Source of the DNA: Pyrinomonadaceae bacterium
Lineage (GTDB): Bacteria > Acidobacteriota > Blastocatellia > Pyrinomonadales > Pyrinomonadaceae
Assembly (NCBI GenBank): GCA_036006355.1
Contig: DASYPT010000100.1
Coordinates: forward strand, 5,724-69,723
Reading direction: 5' to 3'
Length of the DNA stretch: 64,000 bases
Under the pieces are notes generated by a model. That model searched no databases, was not told the DNA's origin, and worked only from the letters and a program-made list of their open reading frames with translations. The position numbers were made by a program, and so were the translations under genes. Shown here piece by piece: positions 5,660 through 63,739 of the stretch (positions are counted from its first letter, which is position 1; every line of letters begins with the position of its first letter).

Positions 5660-5758
5660 AGCGTCTCCTTTAATGTGTGATTCATCTCGGGAGAGGTAGC
5701 AGGGATGATAGCATAAGGGAATTGGATGCCCGGGTGGGGTCAAAAGCCTATTTATCAG

Positions 5759-5882
5759 TGGTCATTTTCCATTTCTCATTTTCCATTTTGGTCTGCGTGG
5801 TTAATAGGACCTATTTGACCTATAGGACCTATTCAGTGCACCAACTAGCGAAAAATGGAAAATGAGAAATGATAAATGACCA
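5759..5882. repeat. family E element copy 1 (9-mer core plus inverted low-complexity arms)
   Basis: Arms TGGTCATTTTCCATTTCTCATTTTCCATTTT / AAAATGGAAAATGAGAAATGATAAATGACCA. Core at 5803-5833 is ATAGGACCT ATTTGACCT ATAGGACCT. Confidence 0.85.
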
Positions 5883-5925
5883 ATGAGAAATGTGCCTTTT
5901 TACCTGTGCCCAATTCGTCTCTCAG

Positions 5926-17364: not shown

Positions 17365-17645
17365 TCGCTGAAAGGTTTCCTGACTCGCAGTATTGACCCA
17401 ATAGATCGCGGATCGCCTTAACTCCTCGCCTTCCCAGATTTCTCCAGTGGCTGATTTGTCCGACGAACTTTAGTTTGTCGTTGGCGTGAATAGTGGCCCG
17501 CGAAAAGAACACAGAGGCCGTAACGTCACGCACGACAAACTAAAGTTCGTCGGACTTCTTTGAGGAACTAAATTACTGCATACAGTTGCGCGGGCAGTGG
17601 CGGCATCTCACCGCCTTCCCTTACCAAGCGACTCTTCGGTTATCA
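17365..17645 (-). promoter_or_regulatory. cobalamin riboswitch 2, interrupted by a family A element
   Basis: Read on the minus strand. Core AAGGGAAGGCGGUGAGAUGCCGCCACUGCCCGCGCAACUGU is at 17582-17622. Distal GCCACUGGAGAAAUCUGGGAAGGCG is at 17427-17451. A B12-box-like GAGUCAGGAAACC is at 17371-17388. Confidence 0.6.
17458..17555. repeat. family A element copy 2 (98 bp), inside riboswitch 2
   Basis: GTCCGACGAACTTTAGTTTGTCG ... CGACAAACTAAAGTTCGTCGGAC; the terminal inverted repeats are perfect. Confidence 0.92.
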
Positions 17646-20616: not shown

Positions 20617-20686
20617 CACAATTTGAAAAGAGCAACTGTAATGTGGCGGCGACACTAACACCTTAAAGTGGGGGTGTCAAACTTCG

Positions 20687-20850
20687 GAAAGGATGAAGGA
20701 TGAAGGCGGAAGGATGAAGGTTGAGCTTTGTACTTTGTACTGGTGCTTCGTACTTTGCGCTCCAGATTCCTCTTGCTCCCAAACTCAAAGCTCAAGGTAC
20801 AAAGTACAAAGCTCAACCTTCATCCTTCCGCCTTCATCCTTCATCCTTTC
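20687..20850. repeat. 164-bp palindrome (type I) with about 54-bp arms
   Basis: GAAAGGATGAAGGATGAAGGCGGAAGGATGAAGGTTGAGCTTTGTACTTTGTAC ... GTACAAAGTACAAAGCTCAACCTTCATCCTTCCGCCTTCATCCTTCATCCTTTC. Confidence 0.9.
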
Positions 20851-20919
20851 TTCGGTTTGCCTCCCCTTCCTGCGTCCAGTAAGATGCCGTTCTATTCAAC
20901 GCCTAACAGGACGAAATCA

Positions 20920-25426: not shown

Positions 25427-25966
25427 TTACGGAACTACGCGCCGACTTCTACTGAGCGCTTTTGGACCGCCATCGGAAACATTGGGTTTACTTTCCGACG
25501 GGCCCTTCTCAGTCAGGTCCGCTTGCTCATAGGGATCCAATCTTGCAAAAACATAGAAGATTTCGCTTGAACGGACCGTCCCAAGGAACCGAAATGTATT
25601 TCTTATCACCTCGCCGGATTTAAAATTGGGCGGTGGTGTAGGTCGACCGAATAGTAACCCAAATTCATCGGCCGTCACCGCCTCCAACTCCGGTAGGTAA
25701 TCATTTTGGGTTTCCCGGGCCAAACGAACCGCGATTTGCCTGAGAGCTCTGATTCGATTGGAGTTGCGGCGATAATAACCAGGGCTGATTTCGCGGCGGC
25801 TTACCCTGTCATCTACAACCTCTTGCTCGTTTTTTAGATATCCCAGGTAGGCGCGGACGACCGGACCAAAATCGTCTTCTGAATATCTCGTCTGGCCGAT
25901 CGTAAATGGCGGACAAATAATCAGGAGAAAGAGACCGAAAAAGAGTTGTGCCCTCGAGAATGGCAT
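25427..25966 (-). CDS. hypothetical exported protein
   Basis: Start moved to ATG 25966 (MPFSRAQLFFGLFLLIICPPF). The longer form would overlap the divergent coaBC start. Confidence 0.45.
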   Translation of the reverse strand: MPFSRAQLFFGLFLLIICPPFTIGQTRYSEDDFGPVVRAYLGYLKNEQEVVDDRVSRREISPGYYRRNSNRIRALRQIAVRLARETQNDYLPELEAVTADEFGLLFGRPTPPPNFKSGEVIRNTFRFLGTVRSSEIFYVFARLDPYEQADLTEKGPSESKPNVSDGGPKALSRSRRVVP

Positions 25967-41018: not shown

Positions 41019-41070
41019 GAAATGTGTGGAAAGTTTAGCATAGGCGCTTCGGACAGCCGCGTCGTCAGGT

Positions 41071-41188
41071 GTCCGATATGCTTCAGCTTTGTCGTGACGC
41101 AACCAACCAGGCCCCTCGGTTTACGAACAGAGCTGATTGCCTTGGGGGCCTGGTTGGTAGAGTCCCGACAAGCTAAAGCATATCGGAC
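41071..41188. repeat. family B terminal-inverted-repeat element copy 1 (118 bp)
   Basis: GTCCGATATGCTTCAGCTTTGTCGTGACGCAACCAACCAGGCCCC ... GGGGCCTGGTTGGTAGAGTCCCGACAAGCTAAAGCATATCGGAC. Confidence 0.9.
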
Positions 41189-41218
41189 AACTTCGGTTAG
41201 AATGCGAAACTCATCAAC

Positions 41219-46138: not shown

Positions 46139-46436
46139 GTCCGATATGCGTCTGTCTTGTCGTGAGTACACCACCAGGCTTTAGCCGGTGGTACTTGAAC
46201 TTCATAACTACAAAGATGGGGAAAAACGTTGGGACACCACCGGGCTTTAGCCGGTGGTATTTCAATTTCATAGCTACTCCTTTGGAAGATCTGAGTGTAG
46301 CTCAGAAGTTGAAGTACCACCGGCTAAAGCCTGGTGGTGTCCCAACGTTTTTCCCCATCTTTGTAGTTGTGAAATTCAGGGACCACCGGCTAAAGCCCGG
46401 TGGTGTGAGGCACGACAAGACAGACGCATATCGGAC
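46139..46436. repeat. family B copy 3: 298-bp nested palindrome
   Basis: Ends GTCCGATATGCGTCTGTCTTGTCGTG / CACGACAAGACAGACGCATATCGGAC. The arms are about 140 bp and about 90% complementary. It carries four internal CACCACCRGGCTTTAGCCGGTGGTA mini-hairpins. Confidence 0.92.
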
Positions 46437-49856: not shown

Positions 49857-51059
49857 ATGGCGAAACGACAAGTTTATCTAGACCATAGCGCGACAACGCC
49901 TGTCGACGAGCGAGTCGCCGCCGCGATGAGTCGTAGCCTGGCCGAAACGTTTGGCAATGCCTCAAGTGTTCACACTTTTGGTCAGAAGGCTCGCTCGGCA
50001 GTTGACCGCGCACGACGGGAAGTGGCTGCTCTCATCGGTGCTCGTCAGAACGAAATTGTCTTTGTCTCAGGCGGAACCGAGGCAAATAATCTTGCCATCC
50101 GGGGTCTCTCCGAAGCCGCAGCGCAATATGGCCGGCATCTTGTTACTTCAGCTATCGAACACCCTTCGGTCCGCGGAGTGTGTGATCGATTGGAGAAAGA
50201 AGGTTGGGACGTAACACGCTTGCCGGTCTATGACAATGGCATCGTGAAGATTGACGATGTTCGTCAGGCTCTTCGTGCGGATACGGTCCTCGTTACCGCG
50301 ATGCTGGCCAACAATGAAATTGGCACGATTCAACCAGTCAAAGAAATCGGGCGCCTGATTAGAGAGCGTCGAAATTCTGGTCGTAAAAGTCTCTGGTTCC
50401 ATACAGACGCGGTCCAGGCTGCAGGCAGACTGGAGATTGACGTTGATGAGCTCGGCTGTGATCTTCTATCGCTTTCAGGTCACAAACTATACGCGCCCAA
50501 AGGAATCGGAGCTCTTTACGTCAGAAAAGGAGTCAGACTCGTAGAGCAAAATGTAGGTGGACATCAGGAACGTGAACGCCGAGGAGGTACCGAAAACGTT
50601 CCGGGCATCGTTGCTTTTGGAGAAGCTGCAAGGATCGCAGGTGAGGAATTCCAAAAGCGAAACGATCATGTGAAGTCTTTGCGTGATCGATTTGAAGCTG
50701 CCGTTGAGACCAGGATTAGCGAGATCGTTATCAATGGCGACCGCCATCAACGTCTTCCTCACCTGACGAACATCTCATTCAGGTTCATTGAAGGAGAAGG
50801 TTTGCTCATCAACCTGGATATGAATGGTATCGCTGTATCAACCGGTTCAGCGTGCTCCTCTGGAACTCTCGAACCATCACCCGTCATTAGAGCTCTGGGT
50901 CGAAATGATGAACTGGCGCGTGGATCAATTCGGTTTAGTTTCGGAAAAGACAATTCGGAAGCAGATGTTGACTATGTGGTCGAGGTTCTGGTTGAGGTAG
51001 TTGAACGACTTCGTGAGCTTTCTCCGCTTGGGAAAGAAGTCAGTACCACCTCGCGGTAG
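49857..51059 (+). CDS. cysteine desulfurase (NifS/IscS type)
   Basis: SLSGHKLYAPKGIG carries the PLP lysine and STGSACSSG carries the active-site Cys. Confidence 0.9.
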   Translation: MAKRQVYLDHSATTPVDERVAAAMSRSLAETFGNASSVHTFGQKARSAVDRARREVAALIGARQNEIVFVSGGTEANNLAIRGLSEAAAQYGRHLVTSAIEHPSVRGVCDRLEKEGWDVTRLPVYDNGIVKIDDVRQALRADTVLVTAMLANNEIGTIQPVKEIGRLIRERRNSGRKSLWFHTDAVQAAGRLEIDVDELGCDLLSLSGHKLYAPKGIGALYVRKGVRLVEQNVGGHQERERRGGTENVPGIVAFGEAARIAGEEFQKRNDHVKSLRDRFEAAVETRISEIVINGDRHQRLPHLTNISFRFIEGEGLLINLDMNGIAVSTGSACSSGTLEPSPVIRALGRNDELARGSIRFSFGKDNSEADVDYVVEVLVEVVERLRELSPLGKEVSTTSR

Positions 51060-51131
51060 CGGGTGGGTGCGAAGTTTTTTGGCAGCCAACTCTGAGCTTC
51101 GCACCCACCCGCTACCGCGAGGTGGTACTGA
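51039..51131. repeat. 93-bp perfect palindrome (type J), 36-bp arms
   Basis: GTCAGTACCACCTCGCGGTAGCGGGTGGGTGCGAAG ... CTTCGCACCCACCCGCTACCGCGAGGTGGTACTGAC. The left arm contains the last 6 codons and the stop of the desulfurase gene. Confidence 0.95.
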
Positions 51132-51171
51132 CTTCTTCCAACTAATTGAAGCAAAATTAGAACCACTTCAG

Positions 51172-51652: not shown

Positions 51653-54367
51653 TCATGGCTGCGGTGTACCAACAACCCTCGGCCTGCTGGATGAATCCCC
51701 TGCCTTACCTCGGTGATACTCCGGCCCACAATACTTTTTCGGTTCCGTTCCCAACACGAAAGTCTTGGTTCTAATCACCGGACATGAATCACTCGCAAGC
51801 AATCCGGTTGTTGGATCAATATCCAGAGTAATCGTTCCTTCTAAATGGCCTTCGGGCACGGCGGTAACTGGTTTTCGAGGCAAGGGTGACGGTAACGGCG
51901 CTACAGTCGGTGTCACTTCTGGAGTTGCTTCTTCTGCGGGCGAGGCCGAGGGCTGTTCTTCTGGAGTCGCCTGCTCAGTCCCTTCAGGGGACTCATGATT
52001 GGGTCCAGTTCCGTTGATGAAATACTCAGTCCGCTTTTCGGTATCACCCGCGGCGCTCGGTTGTCCTGTCTCCGGATTAATTTCGATAGCTTCGACGCCC
52101 GCGGGCATTTGCCAATCGCCGGCCCACTCAGGGTGTTCATTTAAAGCGAACGACATGAAGTCGGACCAGATCGGCAACGCTGAATTCGCACCAGTCAAAC
52201 CCAGCTGCGAGCCATCATCGAAACCTACCCAAACCGCACAGACCAAATTCGGCGTATAACCAGCAAACCAACCGTCTCTAGACGTGCCTGTCTTACCAGC
52301 CAACACTCCCTTCAATCCACGAGCTCTGACTTTTGAAGCAGTGCCACGGTTGATTACGTCCTTCATGAACGAAGTCATAACGAATGCGACGTCCGGCCTA
52401 AGGACTTCACTGCGCTGAGGTGTTGGTGCAGCAACTGTCACTCCTTCGCCAGTCGTAATCCGGTTAATGGCAATCGGTGTTGTCCGTGAACCAAGGTTCG
52501 CAAAAGCAGTATATGCAGAGGCAATCTGCAACGGTGTTGCTTCGCTGGTCCCTAAGGCCATGGCAGGGTATGCACGCGGTGGTTTCGGTAAACCTGCTTT
52601 AGCAGCGAGGTTCATCACCCGGCCAATCGTCACTTCCATTGCCACGTCTACAGTAACGACGTTCAGACTGTGAACAATCGCGTCACGTAACGTAACCGGC
52701 TTATTCGAATAAGTGTCCCCAAAGTTACCCGGCGAATACTCCTGATTGTCGAAGGTGAAGGTCTTCGGTTCATCCATGAAGGTCGTTGCGGGAGTGATCA
52801 CTCGTGGCACCGGATCGTAGGCGGTGTTGAGCGCCGTTGCATAAACAAACGGCTTGAAGACTGAACCAGGTTGACGAAAGGCATCAGCCGCCCGATTAAG
52901 TTGACTCTTCGAATAGTCTCGTCCGCCGACCATCGCAACGATCTCGCCAGTCTTCGCATTCATCGCGACCAGAGCGGCTTGCAGCGTTCCGGGTTGAAAT
53001 CTCTTGGCCTCGATTTTGTCGAGCTCGACCAGTTGCCTGGTGAGGGCTGCGTACGCTGCGCGCTGCAAATCCATATCAATGGTCGTGTAGATCCGTAGAT
53101 GTTCGGCGCCGCCCGGGCCTGCAATCATGTCGCCCAATTGGTTCTGAACATAATCAGCAAAGTAAGGCGCATCAGAGACGTCTATGCGTCCTTTGGTAGG
53201 TGCAACCTGCAGCGGCGTTTCTTTAGCGATCTTTGCTTCGTCCGTGTTAATTGCCCCGGTCTCCAACATCGAGTCAAGCACCTGGTTACGTCTTGCAGTC
53301 GCCGTTTGCAGGTCCCGGTATGGGTTGTAGCGATTTGGACTCCGAATGAGCCCTGCCAGGAATGCCGCTTCCGGCAGAGTTAGATTTGTGACGTCTTTGT
53401 TGAAATACGCGCTTGCAGCTTCGCCCATCCCATTGATTGAGAACCCTGCTTGTTGGCCCATGTAGATCTGATTGCAATACAGTTCGAAGATCTTCTGCTT
53501 CGAGAGACGAGTCTCGAGGATGACCGACATGTAGGCTTCGGAGATTTTTCGCTTAGGAGAGTACTCAGGAGACAGCAAAAGGTTTTTAACTAACTGTTGC
53601 GTGATGCTGGAACCGCCCTGTCTCGCTAAAGGTGAATTTGGATCTATGTCGTAACGACGAACAGCGGCGCGGATGATTCCACGAATGTTCACTCCATAGT
53701 GTTCGAAGAAAGACCGGTCTTCAGTAACTGTAATCGCCTTCCGAAGATGTTCCGGGATGTCGTTGAAACCTACTACTTTCCTTTTTGCGCGCTCATGCCC
53801 GGTTACTGAGCTGATCAACTCTGGTTCAAGCCAAACCTGTTGAAATGAACCACGCCCATCGAGGTCGGACAAAGATGCGATTGCCTTGCCGGTCTTGGCG
53901 AACTGCACACGCACTCTTTGAAACTGCTGCTGACCGTCCACCGTCGAAGCACTACTTGGTTCAACGTCAACCGCAGTTCCATTGATCGTATAACGTCCTC
54001 GGGCATTATCGGCTTGCGCGCTCTTCTCAACATAACCAGCGCGCTTTAGAAATGCTATTACTTCGTCCTCAGAGATCGATTCGTTAACTCGAAGTTGCTT
54101 AGGCGCAGCGTAAATACCTGCGGAGCGAGTGTAGACTTCGCCTTTCAGAAGATTGTCAATGCGAGCTGAGAAGACAGTCCAATAGTAGACAAGGATTCCA
54201 ATTACAATTGCACTTGTAAAGACGACAGGAATAACTACATAGGGGCTTAGCAGTTTTCGCAACAGACGTCGCCAAAAACTCTGATGGGGTTGTATGTAGC
54301 TAACCATTCTTTGATCGCGCATTGTGCGCGACGGCGTCGGGTTATTTGGTGGATACCGGACTGGCAT
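51653..54367 (-). CDS. penicillin-binding protein 1A (bifunctional glycosyltransferase/transpeptidase)
   Basis: EDRSFFEHYGV and GGSSITQQL are GT51 motifs. SVFKP, SLN and KTGT are transpeptidase motifs. There is an N-terminal TM helix and a P/E/T-rich tail. Confidence 0.9.
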   Translation of the reverse strand: MPVRYPPNNPTPSRTMRDQRMVSYIQPHQSFWRRLLRKLLSPYVVIPVVFTSAIVIGILVYYWTVFSARIDNLLKGEVYTRSAGIYAAPKQLRVNESISEDEVIAFLKRAGYVEKSAQADNARGRYTINGTAVDVEPSSASTVDGQQQFQRVRVQFAKTGKAIASLSDLDGRGSFQQVWLEPELISSVTGHERAKRKVVGFNDIPEHLRKAITVTEDRSFFEHYGVNIRGIIRAAVRRYDIDPNSPLARQGGSSITQQLVKNLLLSPEYSPKRKISEAYMSVILETRLSKQKIFELYCNQIYMGQQAGFSINGMGEAASAYFNKDVTNLTLPEAAFLAGLIRSPNRYNPYRDLQTATARRNQVLDSMLETGAINTDEAKIAKETPLQVAPTKGRIDVSDAPYFADYVQNQLGDMIAGPGGAEHLRIYTTIDMDLQRAAYAALTRQLVELDKIEAKRFQPGTLQAALVAMNAKTGEIVAMVGGRDYSKSQLNRAADAFRQPGSVFKPFVYATALNTAYDPVPRVITPATTFMDEPKTFTFDNQEYSPGNFGDTYSNKPVTLRDAIVHSLNVVTVDVAMEVTIGRVMNLAAKAGLPKPPRAYPAMALGTSEATPLQIASAYTAFANLGSRTTPIAINRITTGEGVTVAAPTPQRSEVLRPDVAFVMTSFMKDVINRGTASKVRARGLKGVLAGKTGTSRDGWFAGYTPNLVCAVWVGFDDGSQLGLTGANSALPIWSDFMSFALNEHPEWAGDWQMPAGVEAIEINPETGQPSAAGDTEKRTEYFINGTGPNHESPEGTEQATPEEQPSASPAEEATPEVTPTVAPLPSPLPRKPVTAVPEGHLEGTITLDIDPTTGLLASDSCPVIRTKTFVLGTEPKKYCGPEYHRGKAGDSSSRPRVVGTPQP

Positions 54368-56700: not shown

Positions 56701-57798
56701 ATGTCACTAGTGATTGCAAAAGCAATAAAACGCGTGGTTGTTCGCGGTACCAACTGGGTCGGCGACTCAGTGATGAGCGTGCCGGCACTTCGAGCGTTAC
56801 GGAGAGTTCTTCCGGATGCAAAGATCACACTGGTAATACGACCTGGGGTGCGAGGTCTGTTCGCTGATGCTGACTTTATCGATGAGCTACTAGTCTACAA
56901 TCGGCGAAGTATGTTCTCGGCGTTTGGCCAGGTACGCGAGTGGAAAAAGCGAAACTTCGATCTGGCGTTGTTGTTTCAAAATGCATTTGAAGCAGCACTG
57001 ATTCCCTTCCTTGCCGGCGTTCCCTTGCGACTCGGGTATGCGACTGAATCGCGACAGGCCCTCCTCTCGCATCCTCTTGCTTTACCTGACTGGCGATCAA
57101 CTCGACATGAAGTCTTCTACTACCTTTATCTGGTAACGGCGCTCGAACAGCTGCTGTATCAAACGAGCACCATCTGTGAAGCTGATCCGGATGCCTCATT
57201 GGAGTTATCTGAATCTCGCCGACAAGAAGCAGCCCGAATTCTACAGGCTATTGGAGTAAACAGTGACCGCAGTATTGTGGCGATCTGTCCAGGCTCGATT
57301 AACAGCCGAGCAAAACGCTGGCCCGCGGAATCTTTCGCGCAACTGGCAGATAGACTGTTGGAGGAACGACGTCAGGTTGTATTAGTCGGTTCGAAGGCGG
57401 AGGAGGATGTTTCGCAGGAAGTTACAAGCAGGATGCGCAACAAGCCTGTTGTGTTAACAGGCAAGACAACAATCGATCAACTTACTTCAGTTCTGGGTGT
57501 CGTTGATTTGGTATTAACGAATGACACTGGACCCGCTCACATTGCTGCGGCATTGGGTCGACCGACCCTTGTGATTTTCGGTCCCACCAATCCTCTAACA
57601 ACGAGACCATTTTCTGGTCAGGCTGAAATTCTGAGGCACCCACCTGAGTGCGCACCTTGTATGCTTCGCGATTGTCCAATCGATCATCGTTGCATGACTG
57701 CGATCACCGTCGAAGAAGTTTTAGAACAATCGAATGTGATGCTCAAGCGAAGCAGTTTCGCAAAAGCGGCAAGGAGTTTGTGCGACTCGGTCGCATGA
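56701..57798 (+). CDS. waaF: GT9 ADP-heptose:LPS heptosyltransferase (WaaF-like)
   Basis: Contains RGTNWVGDSVMSVPALRAL and TNDTGPAHIAAALGRPTLVIFGPT. Start set at ATG 56701, because the track start lies in a small hairpin. Confidence 0.8.
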   Translation: MSLVIAKAIKRVVVRGTNWVGDSVMSVPALRALRRVLPDAKITLVIRPGVRGLFADADFIDELLVYNRRSMFSAFGQVREWKKRNFDLALLFQNAFEAALIPFLAGVPLRLGYATESRQALLSHPLALPDWRSTRHEVFYYLYLVTALEQLLYQTSTICEADPDASLELSESRRQEAARILQAIGVNSDRSIVAICPGSINSRAKRWPAESFAQLADRLLEERRQVVLVGSKAEEDVSQEVTSRMRNKPVVLTGKTTIDQLTSVLGVVDLVLTNDTGPAHIAAALGRPTLVIFGPTNPLTTRPFSGQAEILRHPPECAPCMLRDCPIDHRCMTAITVEEVLEQSNVMLKRSSFAKAARSLCDSVA

Positions 57799-58382
57799 CT
57801 AATCAGATGGCAAAATCGGCGGTGTTTATTGATCGTGACGGAACCATCTCGGAAGAAGTTGGTTATGTGAATCATCCGTCACGCTTTCGAGTGTTTCAGT
57901 ACTCAAGCGAGGCGATTAAGAAACTAAATGATGCAGGCTGGCTAGCGATCCTGGTCACGAATCAAGCGGGCGTCGCACGCGGTTACTTCTCGGAAGATGT
58001 CATCACGGAAGTCCATAACCGTCTGAATAAAGAGCTGGCTCAGCAGAACGCTCGACTCGATGCAATCTACTACTGCGCTCACCATCCTAGCGTCGGTGAA
58101 CCACCGTATCGGCTAGACTGTGATTGCCGGAAACCAAAGGACGGATTGATCAAACGTGCTGCAGGTGATTTCGATATTGATTTGCCTGGCAGTTGGATGA
58201 TTGGCGATCGTTATAGCGACATCGAGCTCGCGCACAATGCCGGTTTAAGGTCAGCATTTGTTTTGAGTGGATATGGTCGTGGAGAGTGGGAATATCAGCG
58301 CAGTTCGTGGGTTCTCCAACCAGAGCTCGTTTCTGAGAATCTCTTGGAGGCGGTGAACTCTATAGTTCGCGTTACTCTATAA
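57795..58382 (+). CDS. gmhB: D-glycero-D-manno-heptose 1,7-bisphosphate phosphatase
   Basis: VFIDRDGTI is HAD motif I and CAHHP...CDCRKP is the zinc motif. ATG 57795 overlaps the waaF stop (ATGA). Confidence 0.88.
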   Translation: MTNQMAKSAVFIDRDGTISEEVGYVNHPSRFRVFQYSSEAIKKLNDAGWLAILVTNQAGVARGYFSEDVITEVHNRLNKELAQQNARLDAIYYCAHHPSVGEPPYRLDCDCRKPKDGLIKRAAGDFDIDLPGSWMIGDRYSDIELAHNAGLRSAFVLSGYGRGEWEYQRSSWVLQPELVSENLLEAVNSIVRVTL

Positions 58383-58488
58383 ACTCAGCGAATGAAGCGA
58401 TAATCCAAAGTTTGATCGATGAACATATAGCCCGAAACCACGAGCTCCGCGCACAAGCGCAGAGTTATTGTTACCGAAACTCCTCACC

Positions 58489-58730
58489 ATGGACTTTGAA
58501 ATTGTCAGCGAAAAACAGCGATCGAACCAATTGCCAAGGGCAAAGGAGTTCGCGGCCGTAGTCGTCTACGAAGGCTCTATGGTGGCAATCGTTGGCGGAA
58601 GTTGAAGGGAGTTGCTCAGGTACGACTGTCGAATGGTAGGATACGGAAGGCTGAGATTCACTGGTACGAAGGGCACGGAGTTGGCAGACGAGAATTCAAA
58701 ATAAAACTTCCATTCTTAGATTCGCAATGA
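58489..58730 (+). pseudogene. small, very basic protein gene interrupted by a 1-nt frameshift at an A5 run
   Basis: Frame 1 from ATG 58489 reads MDFEIVSEK... and stops at 58605. The frame ending at 58730 is open from 58500 with no start codon and reads ...AIEPIAKGKGVRGRSRLRRLYGGNRWRKLKGVAQVRLSNGRIRKAEIHWYEGHGVGRREFKIKLPFLDSQ*. One extra A at 58511-58515 joins the two into an 80-aa ORF. Confidence 0.5.
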
Positions 58731-58963
58731 AAAAGAAACAGGCAGCTCATTTTGTAGTTTGTCTCGACAATAATGGCTATGCCGCTTCGTTAGACGTGGG
58801 CAAGCTCTACCGCTTTATCCCGGATCCAGAGGCAGAGGCTGAGGGCTTGCTCCGGGTTATAGACGAGAGCGGTGAAGATTATGCTTTTGAAGCAACGCGG
58901 TTTCACGAAATCACTCTCCCGCGTGTCGTTGAAAAGGCTCTTTTGCAGGCGAGTCGTTCCTAA
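58727..58963 (+). CDS. small acidic hypothetical protein
   Basis: 78 aa. ATG 58727 overlaps the upstream stop (ATGA). The sequence is MKKKQAAHFVVCLDNNGYAASLDVGKLYRFIPDPEAEAEGLLRVIDESGEDYAFEATRF... Confidence 0.6.
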   Translation: MKKKQAAHFVVCLDNNGYAASLDVGKLYRFIPDPEAEAEGLLRVIDESGEDYAFEATRFHEITLPRVVEKALLQASRS

Positions 58964-58973
58964 CCCGTCACAT

Positions 58974-59081
58974 GTCCGATATGCTTTAGCTTGTCGTGAC
59001 GCAACCAACCAAGCCCGAACGATTACGAGGTTCTCAGAAAATTGGGTTGGTTACGTCACGACAAGCTAAAGCATATTGGAC
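58974..59081. repeat. family B element copy 2 (108 bp)
   Basis: GTCCGATATGCTTTAGCTTGTCGTGACGCAACCAACCAAGCCC ... GGGTTGGTTACGTCACGACAAGCTAAAGCATATTGGAC. Confidence 0.9.
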
Positions 59082-59093
59082 ATTCATCTGCGC

Positions 59094-60095
59094 ATGACAC
59101 CTCTTAAAAAACGACTGCTGGATATCATCAGCAATTTTCGCGACAAGAAACTTGTCATTGTCGGTGATTCGATTGCTGATCGGTTCACTTACGGTTCAAT
59201 TAGCCGTGTTTCCCGTGAAGCTCCGGTCTTTATTCTTCGTCACGAACAGACTGAAACTGTACCCGGAGGCGCTGCGAATTCTGCAGTGAATCTTGCGTCG
59301 CTCGGTGCGCAAGTCTCATTAGTTTCCGTGGTTGGAAATGATCAGGCAGGCAGCGAACTGAGGACGAAGCTGGACGGTCTTGGCGTAGATACTGGCAGCT
59401 TATTAACTGCTGAAAATCTACAAACAACGACTAAAGTTCGCATTCTCGCGGGACACGCACATTCAAACCGGCAGCAGGTAATTCGAATCGATTACGAAGA
59501 TTTTCCAATAACAGACCGCGATGTGCGCGCAAGACTATTGTCAGAATTAAAGAGAAGAACTTCCAACGCAAGTGCGGTAATCGTTTCTGATTACAACTAC
59601 GGCGTTGTTGCTGACGCGGAAGTTGAGTTTTTGCGCACCGTTCGGAAATCGGTGCCCGTGTTGGCTGATTCGCGTTTTCGTTTGACGAGTCTTACGGGAT
59701 TGACTGCGGCAACCCCGAACGAAGACGAACTGGAACAAATCATCAAAGAACCGATTGGCTCCCTTGAACATCTTGAAGCCTCGGCAACTAAACTCAAAAA
59801 GCAACTTCAGTATCATGCACTCCTCGTGACGCGCGGACCTCGAGGCATGATGCTGCTCGAGCAGGATGCACCACCACTTCACATCGAAGCAGTAGGCTCC
59901 GCGCAACCCGTCGACGTGACCGGCGCGGGCGACACCGTCATCGCGACATTTGCATTAGCGTTAGCTTCAGGTGCGTCTTTTTCTGAAGCTGCTCGTCTCG
60001 CCAACTACGCCGGCGGCATTGTCGTGATGAAACGTGGGACCGCATCAGTCACCTGCTCTGAACTCGAGCACTCGATCGTTAACTCTGAAAACTAA
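59094..60095 (+). CDS. hldA: D-glycero-beta-D-manno-heptose-7-phosphate kinase (HldE domain I as a separate gene)
   Basis: PfkB-family kinase with [11 protein letters not shown] and DVTGAGDT. Start set at ATG 59094, outside the repeat. Confidence 0.85.
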
Positions 60096-60574
60096 TGCCT
60101 CCTCCTAACGTCGTCTCCCGTGAAGAGTTGATTAAGACTGTGGCTGAAGCGAGAGCAGCAGGTTTGCGAATTGTCCTCGCAAATGGATGCTTTGACGTTC
60201 TGCATGTCGGCCATATTAGATATTTGGCAGGAGCACGGAGTGAAGGGGATCTTTTGATCGTCGGTGTTAACTCCGATGAACAAGTGCGCGAGCAAAAAGG
60301 AGAAGGCCGGCCAATTCTTCCAGCCGCGCAACGGGCCGAGATCGTAGCGGCGCTTGAAAGTGTTAACTACGTCACGGTTTTTGACGAACCAACCGTCGCG
60401 GAGCTGCTGCTCGTGTTAAAGCCGGATGTCCACGCCAAGGGAACGGATTATACTGTCGATACTGTCCCGGAACGTGAAGTGGTTAAATCGTACGGAGGGC
60501 GCGTCGCAATTGTTGGAGACCCAAAAGATCACTCAACTTCGGAGATTCTTTCTCGAATGGGAGAAAATGAATGA
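60095..60574 (+). CDS. hldC: D-glycero-beta-D-manno-heptose-1-phosphate adenylyltransferase (HldE domain II as a separate gene)
   Basis: [14 protein letters not shown] is the HxGH cytidylyltransferase motif. The start overlaps the upstream stop (TAATG). Confidence 0.88.
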
Positions 60575-61035
60575 CTAACATATCCTTTCGACTCACCGCA
60601 AAGGTTGTTGCTCTCTCGATCGTCGTTGCATGCTTAGTTCAGGTTGCACCGGCCCAGTCGAAAGGAAATCGCTTCGACCCTGACGGATCGTTTTGGATTA
60701 AAGGAGATCATCCCGACGGTTTTTCGGATTTCGGCGGCATAAATCTGAACGCCAAGAGAGACAAACATCTTCCAAAGCCTGGCCTCGAGTTGAACAATGG
60801 TCATGCCTTCCGTTTCAAACAGGTGAGTGTCAGCCGCGAGCGTTTCACTTTCACAACTGTAACTCTATCCAATATTTCGTATAGCTTCTCAGGAAGATTT
60901 TTGAAAGGCGGCGTCTTCGGAGCCGGAAAACTTGATGACGAAACGCCGGTGCTGGAAGGCACTCTGATCAAGTACCGCAACGGCAAAAAAGTTGCTGAAG
61001 CAAAATTGACGTTCGTTTATTTCGGCGGCACTTGA
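60571..61035 (+). CDS. exported hypothetical protein
   Basis: ATGA-coupled to hldC. The signal peptide ends ...VAPAQS. I recognise no family. Confidence 0.55.
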
Positions 61036-62725: not shown

Positions 62726-63561
62726 GTCGTAGAACGAGTTATTTTTTGGTTATCGTTTTAGGCGTGACGGTGAGTGTGTTGAGCCGGCAGAGTATCAATG
62801 CTCAGCAACCGATTGCTGCTACTACGAGGCCATTTGAACCGGTTGAGGAACTTCAATACGAAGCTGAGTTCAATCGATCTCTAATTCGTGGACTGAATAT
62901 AGCTGATTTCAAATTCCGCTCAGCCCGAACTCCGAATGTCGAAAATGGCAACGGCTCAAAGCCCGTCTCATTAGTCTTTCGCGCCGATGTTGCGAGCAAA
63001 GGTTTTTTCACTCGTCTCTTCAACCTGAAGGTTCATGAACAAGTAGAATCGACAGTAGACGCAGAAACGCTCACCTTGCAAAGAACAACCATTCGTGATG
63101 AACAAGGCAAACGAGTTCGCGAGACCGAAACCACTTACGATCGGGCCAAAGGGGAAATGGCCTGGACCCGGCGTGATCCCAATAATCCGACCGCCGAACC
63201 TAACAAAGCACTCGTGGATTTTTCGGGTCAGCTCCAGGACATCTTGTCAGCGATCTATTTCATTCGAACTCAACCATTGCACCTGGGAAAGAGCTTCGAA
63301 ATCTTCATCGGAGATGGCGGCAAAGTTTACCGGGTACCCGTTCGAGTTCTTGAGAAGAAGAAGTTGAAGACCGTACTGGGAAGCGTCAATGCGTTTCGAG
63401 TTGAACCAGATCTTTTCGGACCTGATAGTCTGATCGATCATGAAAAGGGTCAGTTCACATTGTGGATCACGGACGACAGTCGCCACATTCCCGTCACCGC
63501 CAAAATCAAGACCGATTACGGAACGTTCGATATTAAATTGAAGCGCGCCGTTTACAATTGA
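62722..63561 (+). CDS. exported protein, DUF3108-like
   Basis: ATG 62722 overlaps the upstream stop (ATGA). It has a signal peptide, EELQYEAEF near the N-terminus and a C-terminal TDYGTFDIKLKR. The family call is from memory. Confidence 0.5.
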   Translation: MSRRTSYFLVIVLGVTVSVLSRQSINAQQPIAATTRPFEPVEELQYEAEFNRSLIRGLNIADFKFRSARTPNVENGNGSKPVSLVFRADVASKGFFTRLFNLKVHEQVESTVDAETLTLQRTTIRDEQGKRVRETETTYDRAKGEMAWTRRDPNNPTAEPNKALVDFSGQLQDILSAIYFIRTQPLHLGKSFEIFIGDGGKVYRVPVRVLEKKKLKTVLGSVNAFRVEPDLFGPDSLIDHEKGQFTLWITDDSRHIPVTAKIKTDYGTFDIKLKRAVYN

Positions 63562-63562
63562 T

Positions 63563-63734
63563 GTCCGACGAACTTTAGTTTGTCGTGGCCCCAAAGAGAT
63601 TAGCCACAAATTCCACAAATGACGCAAACAGGAATTGTGATGAAGGCTCGAACGTCCTAAGTTCTGATCTGTTTGATTTGTGTAAATTTGTGGCTAATCT
63701 CTTTGGGACCACGACAAACTAAAGTTCGTCGGAC
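63563..63734. repeat. family A copy 4, complete composite element (172 bp)
   Basis: Outer ends GTCCGACGAACTTTAGTTTGTCGTGG / CCACGACAAACTAAAGTTCGTCGGAC. The inner inverted pair is CCAAAGAGATTAGCCACAAATT.. / ..AAATTTGTGGCTAATCTCTTTGG. It starts 1 nt after a stop and ends 5 nt before the next ATG. Confidence 0.93.
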
Positions 63735-63739
63735 ATTCT

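What the first reader, a model, noticed from the sequence alone, without database searches (positions are those of the whole stretch)
58423..58963. ATGA-coupled basic/acidic two-gene mini-cassette, with the first gene frameshifted at an A5 run, wedged into the heptose operon
Two tiny genes followed by a family B repeat lie between gmhB (ends 58382) and the heptose kinase (starts 59094). The downstream gene (58727-58963, 78 aa) is acidic (…PDPEAEAEGLLRVIDESGEDYAFE…). Its ATG overlaps the stop of an upstream reading frame encoding a very basic peptide (…GKGVRGRSRLRRLYGGNRWRKLKGVAQVRLSNGRIRKAEIHWYEGHGVGRREFKIK…). That frame is open from 58500 but has no start codon. The only ATG (58489, MDFEIVSEK) is in another frame and stops at 58605. 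Adding one A to the A5 run at 58511-58515 fuses the two frames into an 80-aa ORF. The layout matches type II toxin-antitoxin architecture: small size, opposite charge, translational coupling, insertion into a conserved operon and an adjacent repeat. The possible toxin-like partner would be inactivated. Alternatively the frameshift is a homopolymer sequencing error or programmed slippage. I recall seeing both peptide types as a conserved hypothetical pair in other phyla but cannot name a family.
Basis: partly seen in the sequence, partly recalled or inferred. Interest (0 to 1): 0.65.

Follow-up and report, generated by a model that had tools for sequence, protein, structure and literature searches.

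The report
Decaying toxin–immunity cassette in heptose operon
Two tiny genes inserted into a sugar-biosynthesis operon of a soil Acidobacterium belong to a very widespread, unnamed toxin–immunity pair that also occurs on phage capsid proteins and in integrons; here the toxin gene is being destroyed by mutation while its partner stays intact.

Summary
One correction: the lesion is a lost T (intact relatives read GAAATAACA), not a lost A.

The two genes form a fixed module. The acidic gene lies directly downstream of the basic gene in 83 of 83 loci from at least 10 phyla. Pfam, NCBIfam, PADLOC and PDB name neither protein.

The basic protein is homologous to the last ~75 residues of phage MuF "minor capsid" proteins, the polymorphic-toxin architecture. 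The small ORF after those phage genes is homologous to the acidic, SH3-like partner (hhalign 98.5%). So this is a toxin–immunity (TA-like) pair; toxicity is inferred, not shown.

In close Pyrinomonadaceae relatives the pair is an integron gene cassette. In the window it lies in a 607-nt insert between gmhB and the heptose kinase. A relative has the empty site, which already holds the palindromic repeat.

The frameshift is real. Independent assemblies of the same population carry this lesion or other lesions in the basic gene. Only 2 of 14 assemblies have it intact, while the acidic gene is full-length in all.

This is a new member of a known kind, of moderate interest.

The parts
58365..58971 (+). 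607-nt insert relative to the empty gmhB-kinase junction. It starts GTTCGCG and ends ...CCCGTCAC, directly before the palindromic repeat. It supplies the last 5 codons and the stop codon of gmhB.
   Evidence: Alignment with the empty-site relative L100 and with the pair-bearing relative L101. The boundaries are read from that alignment and are uncertain by about 3 nt.
58454..58468 (+). CAAGCGCAGAGTTAT: a 15-nt exact match to the conserved 3' end (L'-R' GTT box) of the attC sites that precede the pair in L002 and L004. It is a remnant of an upstream attC, 21 nt before the ATG.
   Evidence: the only match in the 64 kb. The rest of an attC is not detectable with the covariance model.
58489..58730 (+). 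Basic toxin-like gene, now a pseudogene. Codons 1-8 are in frame 1. A 1-nt deletion (T between 58513 and 58514, inside what is now the A5 run 58511-58515) shifts the frame. The remainder, from 58515, is in the frame that ends at TGA 58728-58730.
   Evidence: AF2 model of the intact protein: pLDDT 92, order beta-beta-alpha-beta-beta-beta. Homologous to the C-termini of MuF proteins.
58727..58963 (+). Acidic 78-aa partner, the putative immunity/antitoxin. It is intact, and its ATG overlaps the TGA of the basic frame.
   Evidence: AF2 pLDDT 82, SH3-like barrel plus C-terminal helix. Homologous to the small ORF downstream of MuF toxins (hhalign 98.5%, E 2e-15). The exact protein occurs on 12 contigs.
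58972..59083 (.). Family-B palindromic repeat (39-nt arms, 34-nt loop). This is context and not part of the module, because it pre-exists at the empty site.
57795..58382 (+). gmhB-like HAD-IIIA heptose-bisphosphate phosphatase (context, upstream flank).
   Evidence: NF006506 163.7 bits, TIGR00213 135 bits; both slightly below cut-off. Pfam Hydrolase_like in L001.
59094..60095 (+). Heptose-7-phosphate kinase, rfaE domain I-like (context, downstream flank).
   Evidence: TIGR02198 299.9 bits; below the 345-bit cut-off. PfkB in L001.

Best explanation
The pair is a stand-alone toxin-immunity (TA-like) module of an unnamed, very widespread family.

The 80-aa basic protein is a free-standing version of a ~75-residue domain. 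That domain also forms the extreme C-terminus of phage MuF/"minor capsid" proteins, which is the polymorphic-toxin architecture. The 78-aa acidic protein has an SH3-like barrel. It is the cognate immunity protein, is translated in tight coupling with the toxin, and presumably neutralises it by direct binding.

The module moves horizontally. In relatives it is often a promoter-carrying integron gene cassette. In this lineage a 607-nt piece was inserted between gmhB and the heptose kinase. That piece holds a remnant of the upstream attC plus the two genes, but not the downstream attC. It is now read through as part of the heptose operon.

The toxin gene has since been decaying in the population. 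The window carries a 1-nt deletion. Sister strains carry other indels, a 142-nt deletion and substitutions in the conserved EIHWYE motif. The immunity gene remains full-length.

What is shown and what is inferred:
- Shown: homologies, pairing, mobility, the insertion, and the reality and multiplicity of the lesions.
- Inferred: toxicity of the basic protein, neutralisation by binding, and which partner is the toxin.
- Guess: the activity. A metal-independent RNase is suggested by the conserved E/H/K/R residues, pI 11 and the predominance of nucleases among MuF toxins.
For: **Pairing.** The partner lies directly downstream in 83 of 83 loci. The gap is 2 nt in 38 loci and -4 nt in 5.

**Autonomy.** The 74 upstream neighbours carry 90 Pfam families. 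On plasmid pTs485 the pair sits next to a DUF433/PIN-like TA pair and an IS110 element.

**Toxin homology.**
- Foldseek against BFVD: the basic model matches a 451-aa phage minor capsid protein (E 2.8e-4, TM 0.73, 32% identity).
- In about 30 IMG/VR loci the domain lies at the extreme C-terminus of its ORF; these ORFs are mostly 360-760 aa.
- Of 10 such proteins scanned, 5 have an N-terminal Phage_Mu_F domain and 3 have Phage_min_cap2.
- In 8 of 10 the gene lies directly downstream of an SPP1-type portal gene.
- The AE(I/L)HWYEA, W36, K38, G41, K71 and K73 positions are conserved.
- This is the architecture defined for MuF polymorphic toxins (PMC5576092; PMC11699363).

**Immunity homology.** The overlapping 51-61-aa ORF downstream of these phage genes aligns with the acidic family (hhalign 98.5%, E 2.2e-15).

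**Cassette status.**
- L002 has a true IntI (TIGR02249, 479 bits) and an attC array, with the pair as one cassette.
- L004 is the closest of the GTDB genome loci and shows the same arrangement.
- At least 12 of 80 loci have flanking attC sites.
- TA cassettes with their own promoters are a known class in chromosomal integrons (PMC13108822).

**Insertion.** The empty site is in L100, and gmhB and the kinase are adjacent in about 35 more distant loci.

**Decay of the toxin gene.**
- Lesions in independent assemblies are listed.
- In the unbiased sample, 4 indel events fall in the 242-nt basic gene. None fall in the 233 nt of the acidic gene or in 3,580 nt of flanking coding sequence.
- Missense changes or deletions hit W59, E61, I57 and G41.
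- Independent nonsense codons occur in L046, L049 and L054, each with an intact partner.

**Conservation.** The basic protein is more conserved than the acidic one in 68 of 80 loci (67% against 58% mean identity). This is usual for toxin against antidote.
Against: - No experiment shows toxicity or binding.
- No complex could be modelled here.
- The basic fold has no match in the PDB (best E 0.43), so no activity can be assigned.
- The acidic protein has no recognisable DNA-binding domain. Classical type II autoregulation is therefore not evident.
- The window copy has no detectable promoter of its own.
- The window copy has no complete attC, so the route of insertion is unresolved.
- In the population the acidic gene also carries 3 non-synonymous changes against 1 synonymous, including G49R at a near-invariant residue. 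Its retention may be slower drift rather than selection.
- MuF C-terminal extensions of unknown type have not been proven to be toxins (PMC5576092).
Confidence: 0.75

Rival explanations
1. The frameshift is an assembly or sequencing error, and the basic gene is intact and functional in the organism.
For: L001, at 99.3% identity, has the gene intact. L001 itself has a +1T that splits PBP1A where the window is intact. Single-base indels between these assemblies could therefore be errors.
Against: Three further independent assemblies share the same missing T: L091, L092 (NCBI GCA_046735035.1) and L096. Each has additional lesions. Six others carry a 142-nt deletion, and L086 and L094 carry different indels. 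Indels are concentrated in this one gene, with 4 events in 242 nt against 0 in about 3.8 kb around it. The deletion is of a T flanked by A's, not a length change of a pre-existing homopolymer.
Confidence: 0.04
2. The pair is not toxic. The basic domain is a nucleic-acid- or capsid-binding accessory domain of MuF head proteins. The acidic SH3-like protein is its chaperone or regulator. The stand-alone pair is a domesticated or selfish remnant without an addiction function.
For: The role of most MuF C-terminal extensions is unknown. The pI of 11 fits nucleic-acid binding. There is a weak, non-significant resemblance to Rad52-like folds and to the FUS RRM (E 0.035). No known toxin fold was found.
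Against: Strict co-occurrence with a tightly coupled small acidic partner, both on phages and as a stand-alone pair, is the signature of toxin/immunity pairs. The pair is carried as a two-gene integron cassette with a promoter-like leader. The basic gene is knocked out recurrently and independently while the partner is kept.
Confidence: 0.15
3. The roles are reversed. The upstream basic protein is a DNA-binding antitoxin and the downstream acidic SH3-like barrel is the toxin, by analogy with the SH3-like CcdB/MazF toxins and the usual antitoxin-first gene order.
For: The antitoxin-first order is the commoner one in type II TA systems (textbook knowledge). The CcdB/MazF toxins are SH3-like barrels (from memory). 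The basic protein could bind DNA.
Against: On phages the basic domain is the one fused to the MuF delivery module and the acidic ORF is the free downstream gene. In polymorphic toxin systems this arrangement places the toxin first and the immunity gene second. Loss of the basic gene with the acidic gene intact is seen many times; that would be lethal if the basic protein were the antidote. Foldseek matches of the acidic model are to peptide-binding SH3 or Tudor domains, not to CcdB/MazF.
Confidence: 0.05
4. Programmed ribosomal frameshifting at the A-run yields the full-length basic protein from the window allele.
For: The A5 run lies exactly at the frame junction.
Against: The intact relatives read straight through this site: 15 representative proteins carry E-I-T or an equivalent at these positions, and among 83 loci the only disruptions seen are nonsense codons elsewhere in the gene. 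Intact alleles of the same species have AAATAA, not a slippery run. Sister alleles add further frame-breaking lesions.
Confidence: 0.01

Closest known systems
MuF polymorphic toxins of temperate phages with downstream immunity ORFs (Jamet et al. 2017, PMC5576092; characterised members Apk2 and Bxa, PMC11699363)
   Same: The basic protein is homologous to the C-terminal domain of proteins that have an N-terminal Phage_Mu_F or Phage_min_cap2 domain and are encoded just after the portal gene. Identity is 35-45% and the EIHWYEA motif is kept. The acidic protein is homologous to the small overlapping ORF that follows those genes. The gene order is toxin first, immunity second.
   Different: The window protein is free-standing, with no MuF domain and no phage context. 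Its partner has an extra C-terminal helix of about 20 residues that the phage ORFs lack. This C-terminal domain class has no Pfam model. It is not among the characterised MuF toxin activities, which are (p)ppApp synthetase and ADP-ribosyltransferase.
Type II toxin-antitoxin cassettes of sedentary chromosomal integrons (e.g. the Vibrio cholerae superintegron; PMC13108822, PMC11023631)
   Same: In relatives the pair is a two-gene, translationally coupled cassette bounded by attC sites (L002, L004 and others). Many cassette copies carry a promoter-like leader. The module is spread across phyla.
   Different: No match to any described TA family (Pfam, NCBIfam, PADLOC). The order is toxin first. 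The partner has no recognisable DNA-binding domain. In the window the module lies outside any integron, keeps only a 15-nt attC remnant, and no IntI gene is found within 64 kb.
Orphan immunity genes and decayed toxin genes of polymorphic toxin loci and TA systems
   Same: The toxin gene is broken and the immunity gene is kept. Multiple independent toxin lesions occur in one population.
   Different: Whether the retained gene protects against anything (phage-delivered MuF toxin, homologous cassettes) is untested. It also shows some non-synonymous drift.

Membership tests
Type II toxin-antitoxin system | Two small adjacent co-oriented genes expressed as one unit | tested here: met
   ATGA overlap in the window. 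The gap is -4 to +5 nt in most of the 83 loci.
Type II toxin-antitoxin system | Either protein belongs to a described TA toxin or antitoxin family | tested here: not met
   No hit in Pfam, NCBIfam or PADLOC at E<=1. No PDB fold match for the basic model.
Type II toxin-antitoxin system | Antitoxin with a DNA-binding domain that autoregulates the operon (usual but not universal) | tested here: inconclusive
   The acidic model is an SH3-like barrel plus a helix, with no RHH/HTH/AbrB-type match. Regulation cannot be tested here.
Type II toxin-antitoxin system | The toxin arrests growth, and the antitoxin neutralises it by direct binding and is labile | not testable with these tools
   Needs expression and binding assays. 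No multimer prediction was available.
MuF polymorphic toxin / immunity system | N-terminal MuF domain (PF04233 or PF06152) in the same polypeptide, with the gene next to the portal gene | tested here: not met
   The window protein is 80 aa, stand-alone and in a heptose operon. The feature is met only in its phage relatives.
MuF polymorphic toxin / immunity system | Variable C-terminal domain homologous to the domain in question | tested here: met
   tblastn E down to 1e-12 over residues 7-78. Alignment with conserved motif. Foldseek TM 0.64-0.80 at 29-32% identity.
MuF polymorphic toxin / immunity system | Small ORF immediately downstream that is specific to the toxin domain (immunity) | tested here: met
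   Overlapping 51-61-aa ORFs in the phage loci are homologous to the acidic family (hhalign 98.5%).
MuF polymorphic toxin / immunity system | Demonstrated toxicity of the C-terminal domain and protection by the immunity protein | not testable with these tools
   No member of this domain class has been characterised, as far as the papers read here show.
Integron gene cassette | Bounded by attC sites (R''-L''...L'-R', AAC...GTT, extrahelical bases) | tested here: not met
   For the window copy the covariance model R1 finds no attC on either flank. Only a 15-nt 3'-end remnant is present. The feature is met in relatives L002, L004, L009, L026, L027, L059, L065 and L074, and in L006, L011, L023 and L071 by a cruder scan.
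Integron gene cassette | Integron integrase adjacent to the array | tested here: not met
   No IntI-like gene in the 64-kb window. L002 has IntI (TIGR02249, 478.7 bits against a cut-off of 265).

The most novel reading that the evidence does not exclude
The basic domain is a new toxin fold with a new or unassigned activity. Phages carry it into cells on their MuF head protein. Free immunity genes such as the one kept in this window then act as protection of soil bacteria against phage-delivered (or cassette-borne) toxin, making the orphan partner in effect an anti-phage or anti-addiction gene. The integron cassette pool and phage capsid toxins would then share one toxin/immunity currency across at least 10 phyla.
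Probability: 0.2. Interest if true: 0.75.

Novelty: new member of a known kind. Interest (0 to 1): 0.55.

Why it matters
The family is large. The basic protein has 1,490 clusters at 50% identity. It spans Acidobacteriota, Poribacteria, Latescibacterota, Chloroflexota, Cyanobacteria, Planctomycetota, Proteobacteria, Actinobacteria and others. Every source calls both proteins "hypothetical".

Placing the family as the stand-alone form of a MuF phage toxin domain plus its immunity protein has three consequences:

- It gives a testable function to thousands of genes.
- It adds a domain class to the largely uncharacterised MuF toxins.
- It links two pools of mobile genes, phage head-module toxins and integron cassettes.

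The locus also offers a natural series of toxin-inactivating alleles that point at the EIHWYE motif as functionally critical. For annotation, the window's basic ORF should be called a pseudogene and not repaired.

Tried and rejected
- **Sequence searches of both proteins.** Pfam, NCBIfam, PADLOC, PHROGs and PDB sequences gave nothing usable.
- **FUS/EWS RRM similarity.** The basic profile gave E 0.035. Rejected because the AF2 topology (beta-beta-alpha-beta-beta-beta) is not an RRM and Foldseek does not find RRMs.
- **Foldseek of the basic model against the PDB.** The best hit was Rad52 at E 0.43 and TM 0.34, which is not a match.
- **The family-B repeat as the cassette's attC.** Rejected. It scores 6 bits with the attC model, recurs at unrelated places in the window, and sits at the empty site of L100.
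- **A complete attC upstream of the pair.** DNA folding was no better than shuffles (z -0.3) and the covariance model gave no hit. Only the 15-nt 3' end is kept.
- **tblastn against GenBank phages.** No match. The phage relatives came from BFVD and IMG/VR instead.
- **A first attC heuristic.** It was too strict and missed clear sites. It was replaced by the covariance model and a second scan with controls.
- **A second, broader attC model.** Not built, because the hit alignment was contaminated by reverse-strand matches of the palindromes.

Full report
**1. Observation**

- The ATG at 58489 opens MDFEIVSEK..., a frame that stops at 58605.
- A second frame is open from 58500 to the TGA at 58728-58730. 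It encodes a very basic peptide but has no start codon before a TTG at 58602.
- The ATG of a 78-aa acidic ORF (58727-58963) overlaps that TGA.
- One added base in the A5 run (58511-58515) gives an 80-aa protein of pI 11.2. The partner has pI 5.3.

The flanking genes are ADP-heptose pathway genes. They are heptosyltransferase II, a GmhB-like HAD-IIIA phosphatase, an rfaE-domain-I-like kinase and an rfaE-domain-II-like adenylyltransferase. The last three score slightly below NCBIfam's curated cut-offs, but these are their best hits.

One correction is needed. A 99.3%-identical contig (L001, JGI 3300044699) and all family members read GAA ATA ACA (E-I-T). The window has therefore lost a T from AAATAA. 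It has not lost an A from an A6 run.

**2. The pair is a conserved, autonomous two-gene module**

Family size and naming:
- The repaired protein has 1,217 homologues among 90% clusters.
- It has 1,490 clusters at 50% identity with E<=0.001.
- Every source calls both proteins hypothetical. Pfam, NCBIfam, PADLOC, PHROGs and PDB sequence searches find nothing.

Pairing and context:
- 80 species-level genomes carry the basic gene. They come from Acidobacteriota, Poribacteria, Latescibacterota, Chloroflexota, Cyanobacteria, Planctomycetota, Proteobacteria, Actinobacteria, Binatia and Ignavibacteria.
- In every one of these, and in 3 further loci, the acidic gene lies directly downstream. The gap is 2 nt in 38 loci and -4 nt in 5.
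- Neighbours are unrelated from locus to locus. The 74 upstream neighbours carry 90 Pfam families, with a few HicB-like antitoxins among them.
- On plasmid pTs485 of Ca. Thiodictyon the pair is annotated as two hypothetical proteins. It sits next to a DUF433/PIN-like TA pair and an IS110 transposase.
- The basic protein is the more conserved partner in 68 of 80 loci (mean identity 67% against 58%).

**3. Structure**

The AF2 model of the intact basic protein is confident, with pLDDT 92. Its order of elements is beta-beta-alpha-beta-beta-beta. It has no match among solved structures; the best Foldseek hit has E 0.43.

The acidic protein (pLDDT 82) is an SH3-like barrel followed by a C-terminal helix. 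TM scores are about 0.6 to many SH3 domains.

**4. What the pair is related to**

- Against predicted viral structures, the basic model matches a 451-aa "minor capsid protein" and two other phage proteins. TM scores are 0.64-0.80 at 29-32% identity.
- A scan of IMG/VR found 37 viral loci. In about 30 of them the domain is the extreme C-terminus of its ORF, and these ORFs are mostly 360-760 aa.
- Ten such proteins were scanned. Five have an N-terminal Phage_Mu_F domain and three have Phage_min_cap2.
- In 8 of 10 the gene follows an SPP1-type portal gene.
- The alignment keeps W36, K38, G41, AE(I/L)HWYEA, K71 and K73.
- Each of these genes is followed by an overlapping 51-61-aa ORF with the motif R(V/I)(I/V)DE(S/T)GEDY(L/A)(Y/F).
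- Profile-profile comparison with the acidic family gives 98.5% probability and E 2.2e-15.

This is the architecture of MuF polymorphic toxins: a MuF head-protein domain, a variable C-terminal toxin and a small downstream immunity ORF (PMC5576092). Only two MuF toxin types, Apk2 and Bxa, have been characterised so far (PMC11699363), and this C-terminal class is neither. The window's pair is therefore the free-standing form of a toxin-domain/immunity pair. The homology is shown. The toxicity is inferred.

**5. Mobility**

In L002 (83% aa identity) the pair is one cassette of a true integron.
- The integrase matches TIGR02249 at 479 bits, well above its cut-off.
- At least 13 attC sites follow it. 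They have the form AAC-AAGCGCTTGGAGCGGACTCGCC...GGCGAGCCGCTCAAGCGCAxC-GTT, with two unpaired bases in the stem.

In L004, the closest of the GTDB genome loci (85% identity), the pair lies in an array of the same attC type.

A covariance model of these attC sites finds flanking sites in 8 loci. A cruder AAC...GTT palindrome scan finds sites right after the stop codon in 8 of 79 loci, against 4 of 641 control positions. Together, at least 12 of 80 loci are cassettes.

Many cassette copies share a leader with a promoter-like TTGAAT-17-(TGG)CATGAT ending 8 nt before the ATG. Promoter-containing TA cassettes are a known class in chromosomal integrons (PMC13108822).

**6. The insertion in this lineage**

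- A metagenome contig whose kinase is 87% identical (L100) has gmhB followed directly by the family-B palindrome and then the kinase, with no pair.
- Another contig at 87% identity (L101) has the pair.
- About 35 more distant loci have gmhB and the kinase adjacent.
- The insert is window 58365-58971 (607 nt).
- It supplies the last five codons of gmhB.
- It contains a 15-nt exact match to the 3' end of the attC consensus, CAAGCGCAGAGTTAT at 58454-58468. This is the only match in the window.
- After the stop codon it stays similar to L002 only up to the first bases (..CAT) of the R'' box of L002's downstream attC, which here overlap the start of the palindrome.
- No complete attC is present, and no IntI gene is found in the 64 kb.
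- The palindrome belongs to a repeat family scattered through the window. It pre-exists at the empty site, so it is not part of the module.
- How the piece moved is unresolved.

**7. The frameshift is real and is one of many lesions**

Twelve contigs from independent samples encode exactly the window's acidic protein. Six assemblies, including the window, were sampled without bias through the flanking adenylyltransferase gene and span the pair. The alleles found are these:

| Allele of the basic gene | Assemblies |
|---|---|
| Intact | L001 (= L093), L095 |
| Deletion of T at 58513 | window |
| Same deletion of T plus deletion of CT at 58575-6 (frame restored, residues 9-30 scrambled) | L096, L091 |
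| Those two lesions plus W59S and deletion of G41 | L092 |
| T present, deletion of CT plus deletion of G58597, plus E61Q | L094 |
| T present, deletion of CT plus deletion of AG at 58686-7 | L086 |
| 142-nt deletion (58401-58542) removing the start and the first ~18 codons, with further 1-nt indels or I57N in different contigs | L084, L085, L087-L090 |

In the unbiased set, 4 indel events fall in the 242-nt basic gene. None fall in the 233 nt of the acidic gene or in 3,580 nt of flanking coding sequence. By my calculation, if events fell at random over these 4,055 nt, the chance that all four land in the basic gene is about 1e-5.

The acidic gene is full-length in all 14 assemblies. Eight of these were found through that very protein, so only the 6 unbiased ones count as evidence.

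Elsewhere in the family, L046, L049 and L054 carry in-frame nonsense codons in the basic gene with the partner intact.

This pattern argues that the basic protein is the harmful or dispensable partner. It rules out a sequencing artefact and programmed frameshifting.

One caveat applies. The acidic gene shows 3 non-synonymous changes against 1 synonymous in the population, including G49R. Selection for its retention is therefore not demonstrated.

**8. Mechanism proposed**

The toxin (basic) and immunity protein (acidic) are translated from one message with coupling, and the immunity protein binds and blocks the toxin. As a cassette or on plasmids, the pair would stabilise its carrier or act in conflict with phages. 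On phages, the same domain is attached to a head protein that is packaged.

In this window the module is read through from the heptose operon, because no promoter-like site lies upstream on the + strand. Its toxin is dead.

The activity is unknown. Three things make a metal-independent nuclease the best guess, with low confidence:
- the conserved Glu, His, Lys and Arg residues;
- the high pI;
- the fact that more than half of the recognised MuF toxins are nucleases.

**9. Verdict**

- The family is a polymorphic-toxin-type toxin/immunity pair, not a described type II TA family.
- The adjacent repeat is unrelated to the module.
- The lesion is a genuine, population-level pseudogenisation.

This is a new member of a known kind. 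Interest is moderate: a very large unannotated family now has a testable function, a link to phage MuF toxins and integron cassettes, and a natural allelic series.

Noticed in passing
window 58972-59083; also 17458-17555, 41067-41192, 63561-63736; L100:~100-230: The family-B palindromic repeat has conserved outer arms (GTCCGAyrwrCTTyAGyTTGTCGTG) and a variable centre. It recurs in unrelated intergenic spots. It sits at the empty gmhB-kinase junction of L100, where gmhB reads into it. It looks REP/MITE-like and is not an attC.
   Followed up: partly
window, whole (e.g. 46168-46406, 20671-20866, 5742-5899, 51034-51137): The window holds 22 intergenic inverted repeats of at least 22 nt, from several families. 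One has 110-nt arms.
   Followed up: no
L001:863 / window 53350 (PBP1A, window 51653-54367, minus strand): The close relative L001 has a +1T that splits the class A penicillin-binding protein into two ORFs. The window has an intact 904-aa ORF. Whether this is an error or a real variant is unknown.
   Followed up: partly
L006, L009, L011, L019, L023, L027: about 50 nt upstream of the basic gene: Cassette-borne copies share a leader, GTTATGC..CTTGAAT-17 nt-(TGG)CATGAT-8 nt-ATG. It is promoter-like with an extended -10 and would give a nearly leaderless mRNA. The L002/L004/window type of leader lacks it.
   Followed up: no
L042:1666-2166; L035:5240-6061: In L042 the toxin and immunity genes are fused into one 166-aa ORF. 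In L035 the immunity protein carries a C-terminal extension of about 195 aa, for 273 aa in total.
   Followed up: no
L046:4958-5191, L049:2588-2821, L054:5001-5234: In three unrelated genomes the basic gene carries an in-frame nonsense codon (codon 37, 32 or 31), and the partner is full-length.
   Followed up: partly
L002:2746-12237: A chromosomal integron on a 6.1-Mb metagenome-assembled contig (ENA ERZ28493135). It has IntI and at least 13 cassettes of mostly unknown small proteins. There are two attC subtypes: a 103-nt type and a ~125-nt type at 5856, 9498 and 11552.
   Followed up: partly
window 58573-58578 (GGCTCTATGG): The CT deletion at 58575-6 occurs on alleles both with and without the T deletion. 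This points to recurrent slippage at the CTCT repeat or to recombination within the population.
   Followed up: no
window 25541-25602 (minus strand): This is the only hit of the attC covariance model in the window. It is weak (12 bits, E 0.13) and short, and is probably chance.
   Followed up: no
window 60571-61035: A 154-aa ORF with a signal-peptide-like N-terminus and no Pfam family lies inside the heptose gene cluster. It is conserved in all sister contigs.
   Followed up: no
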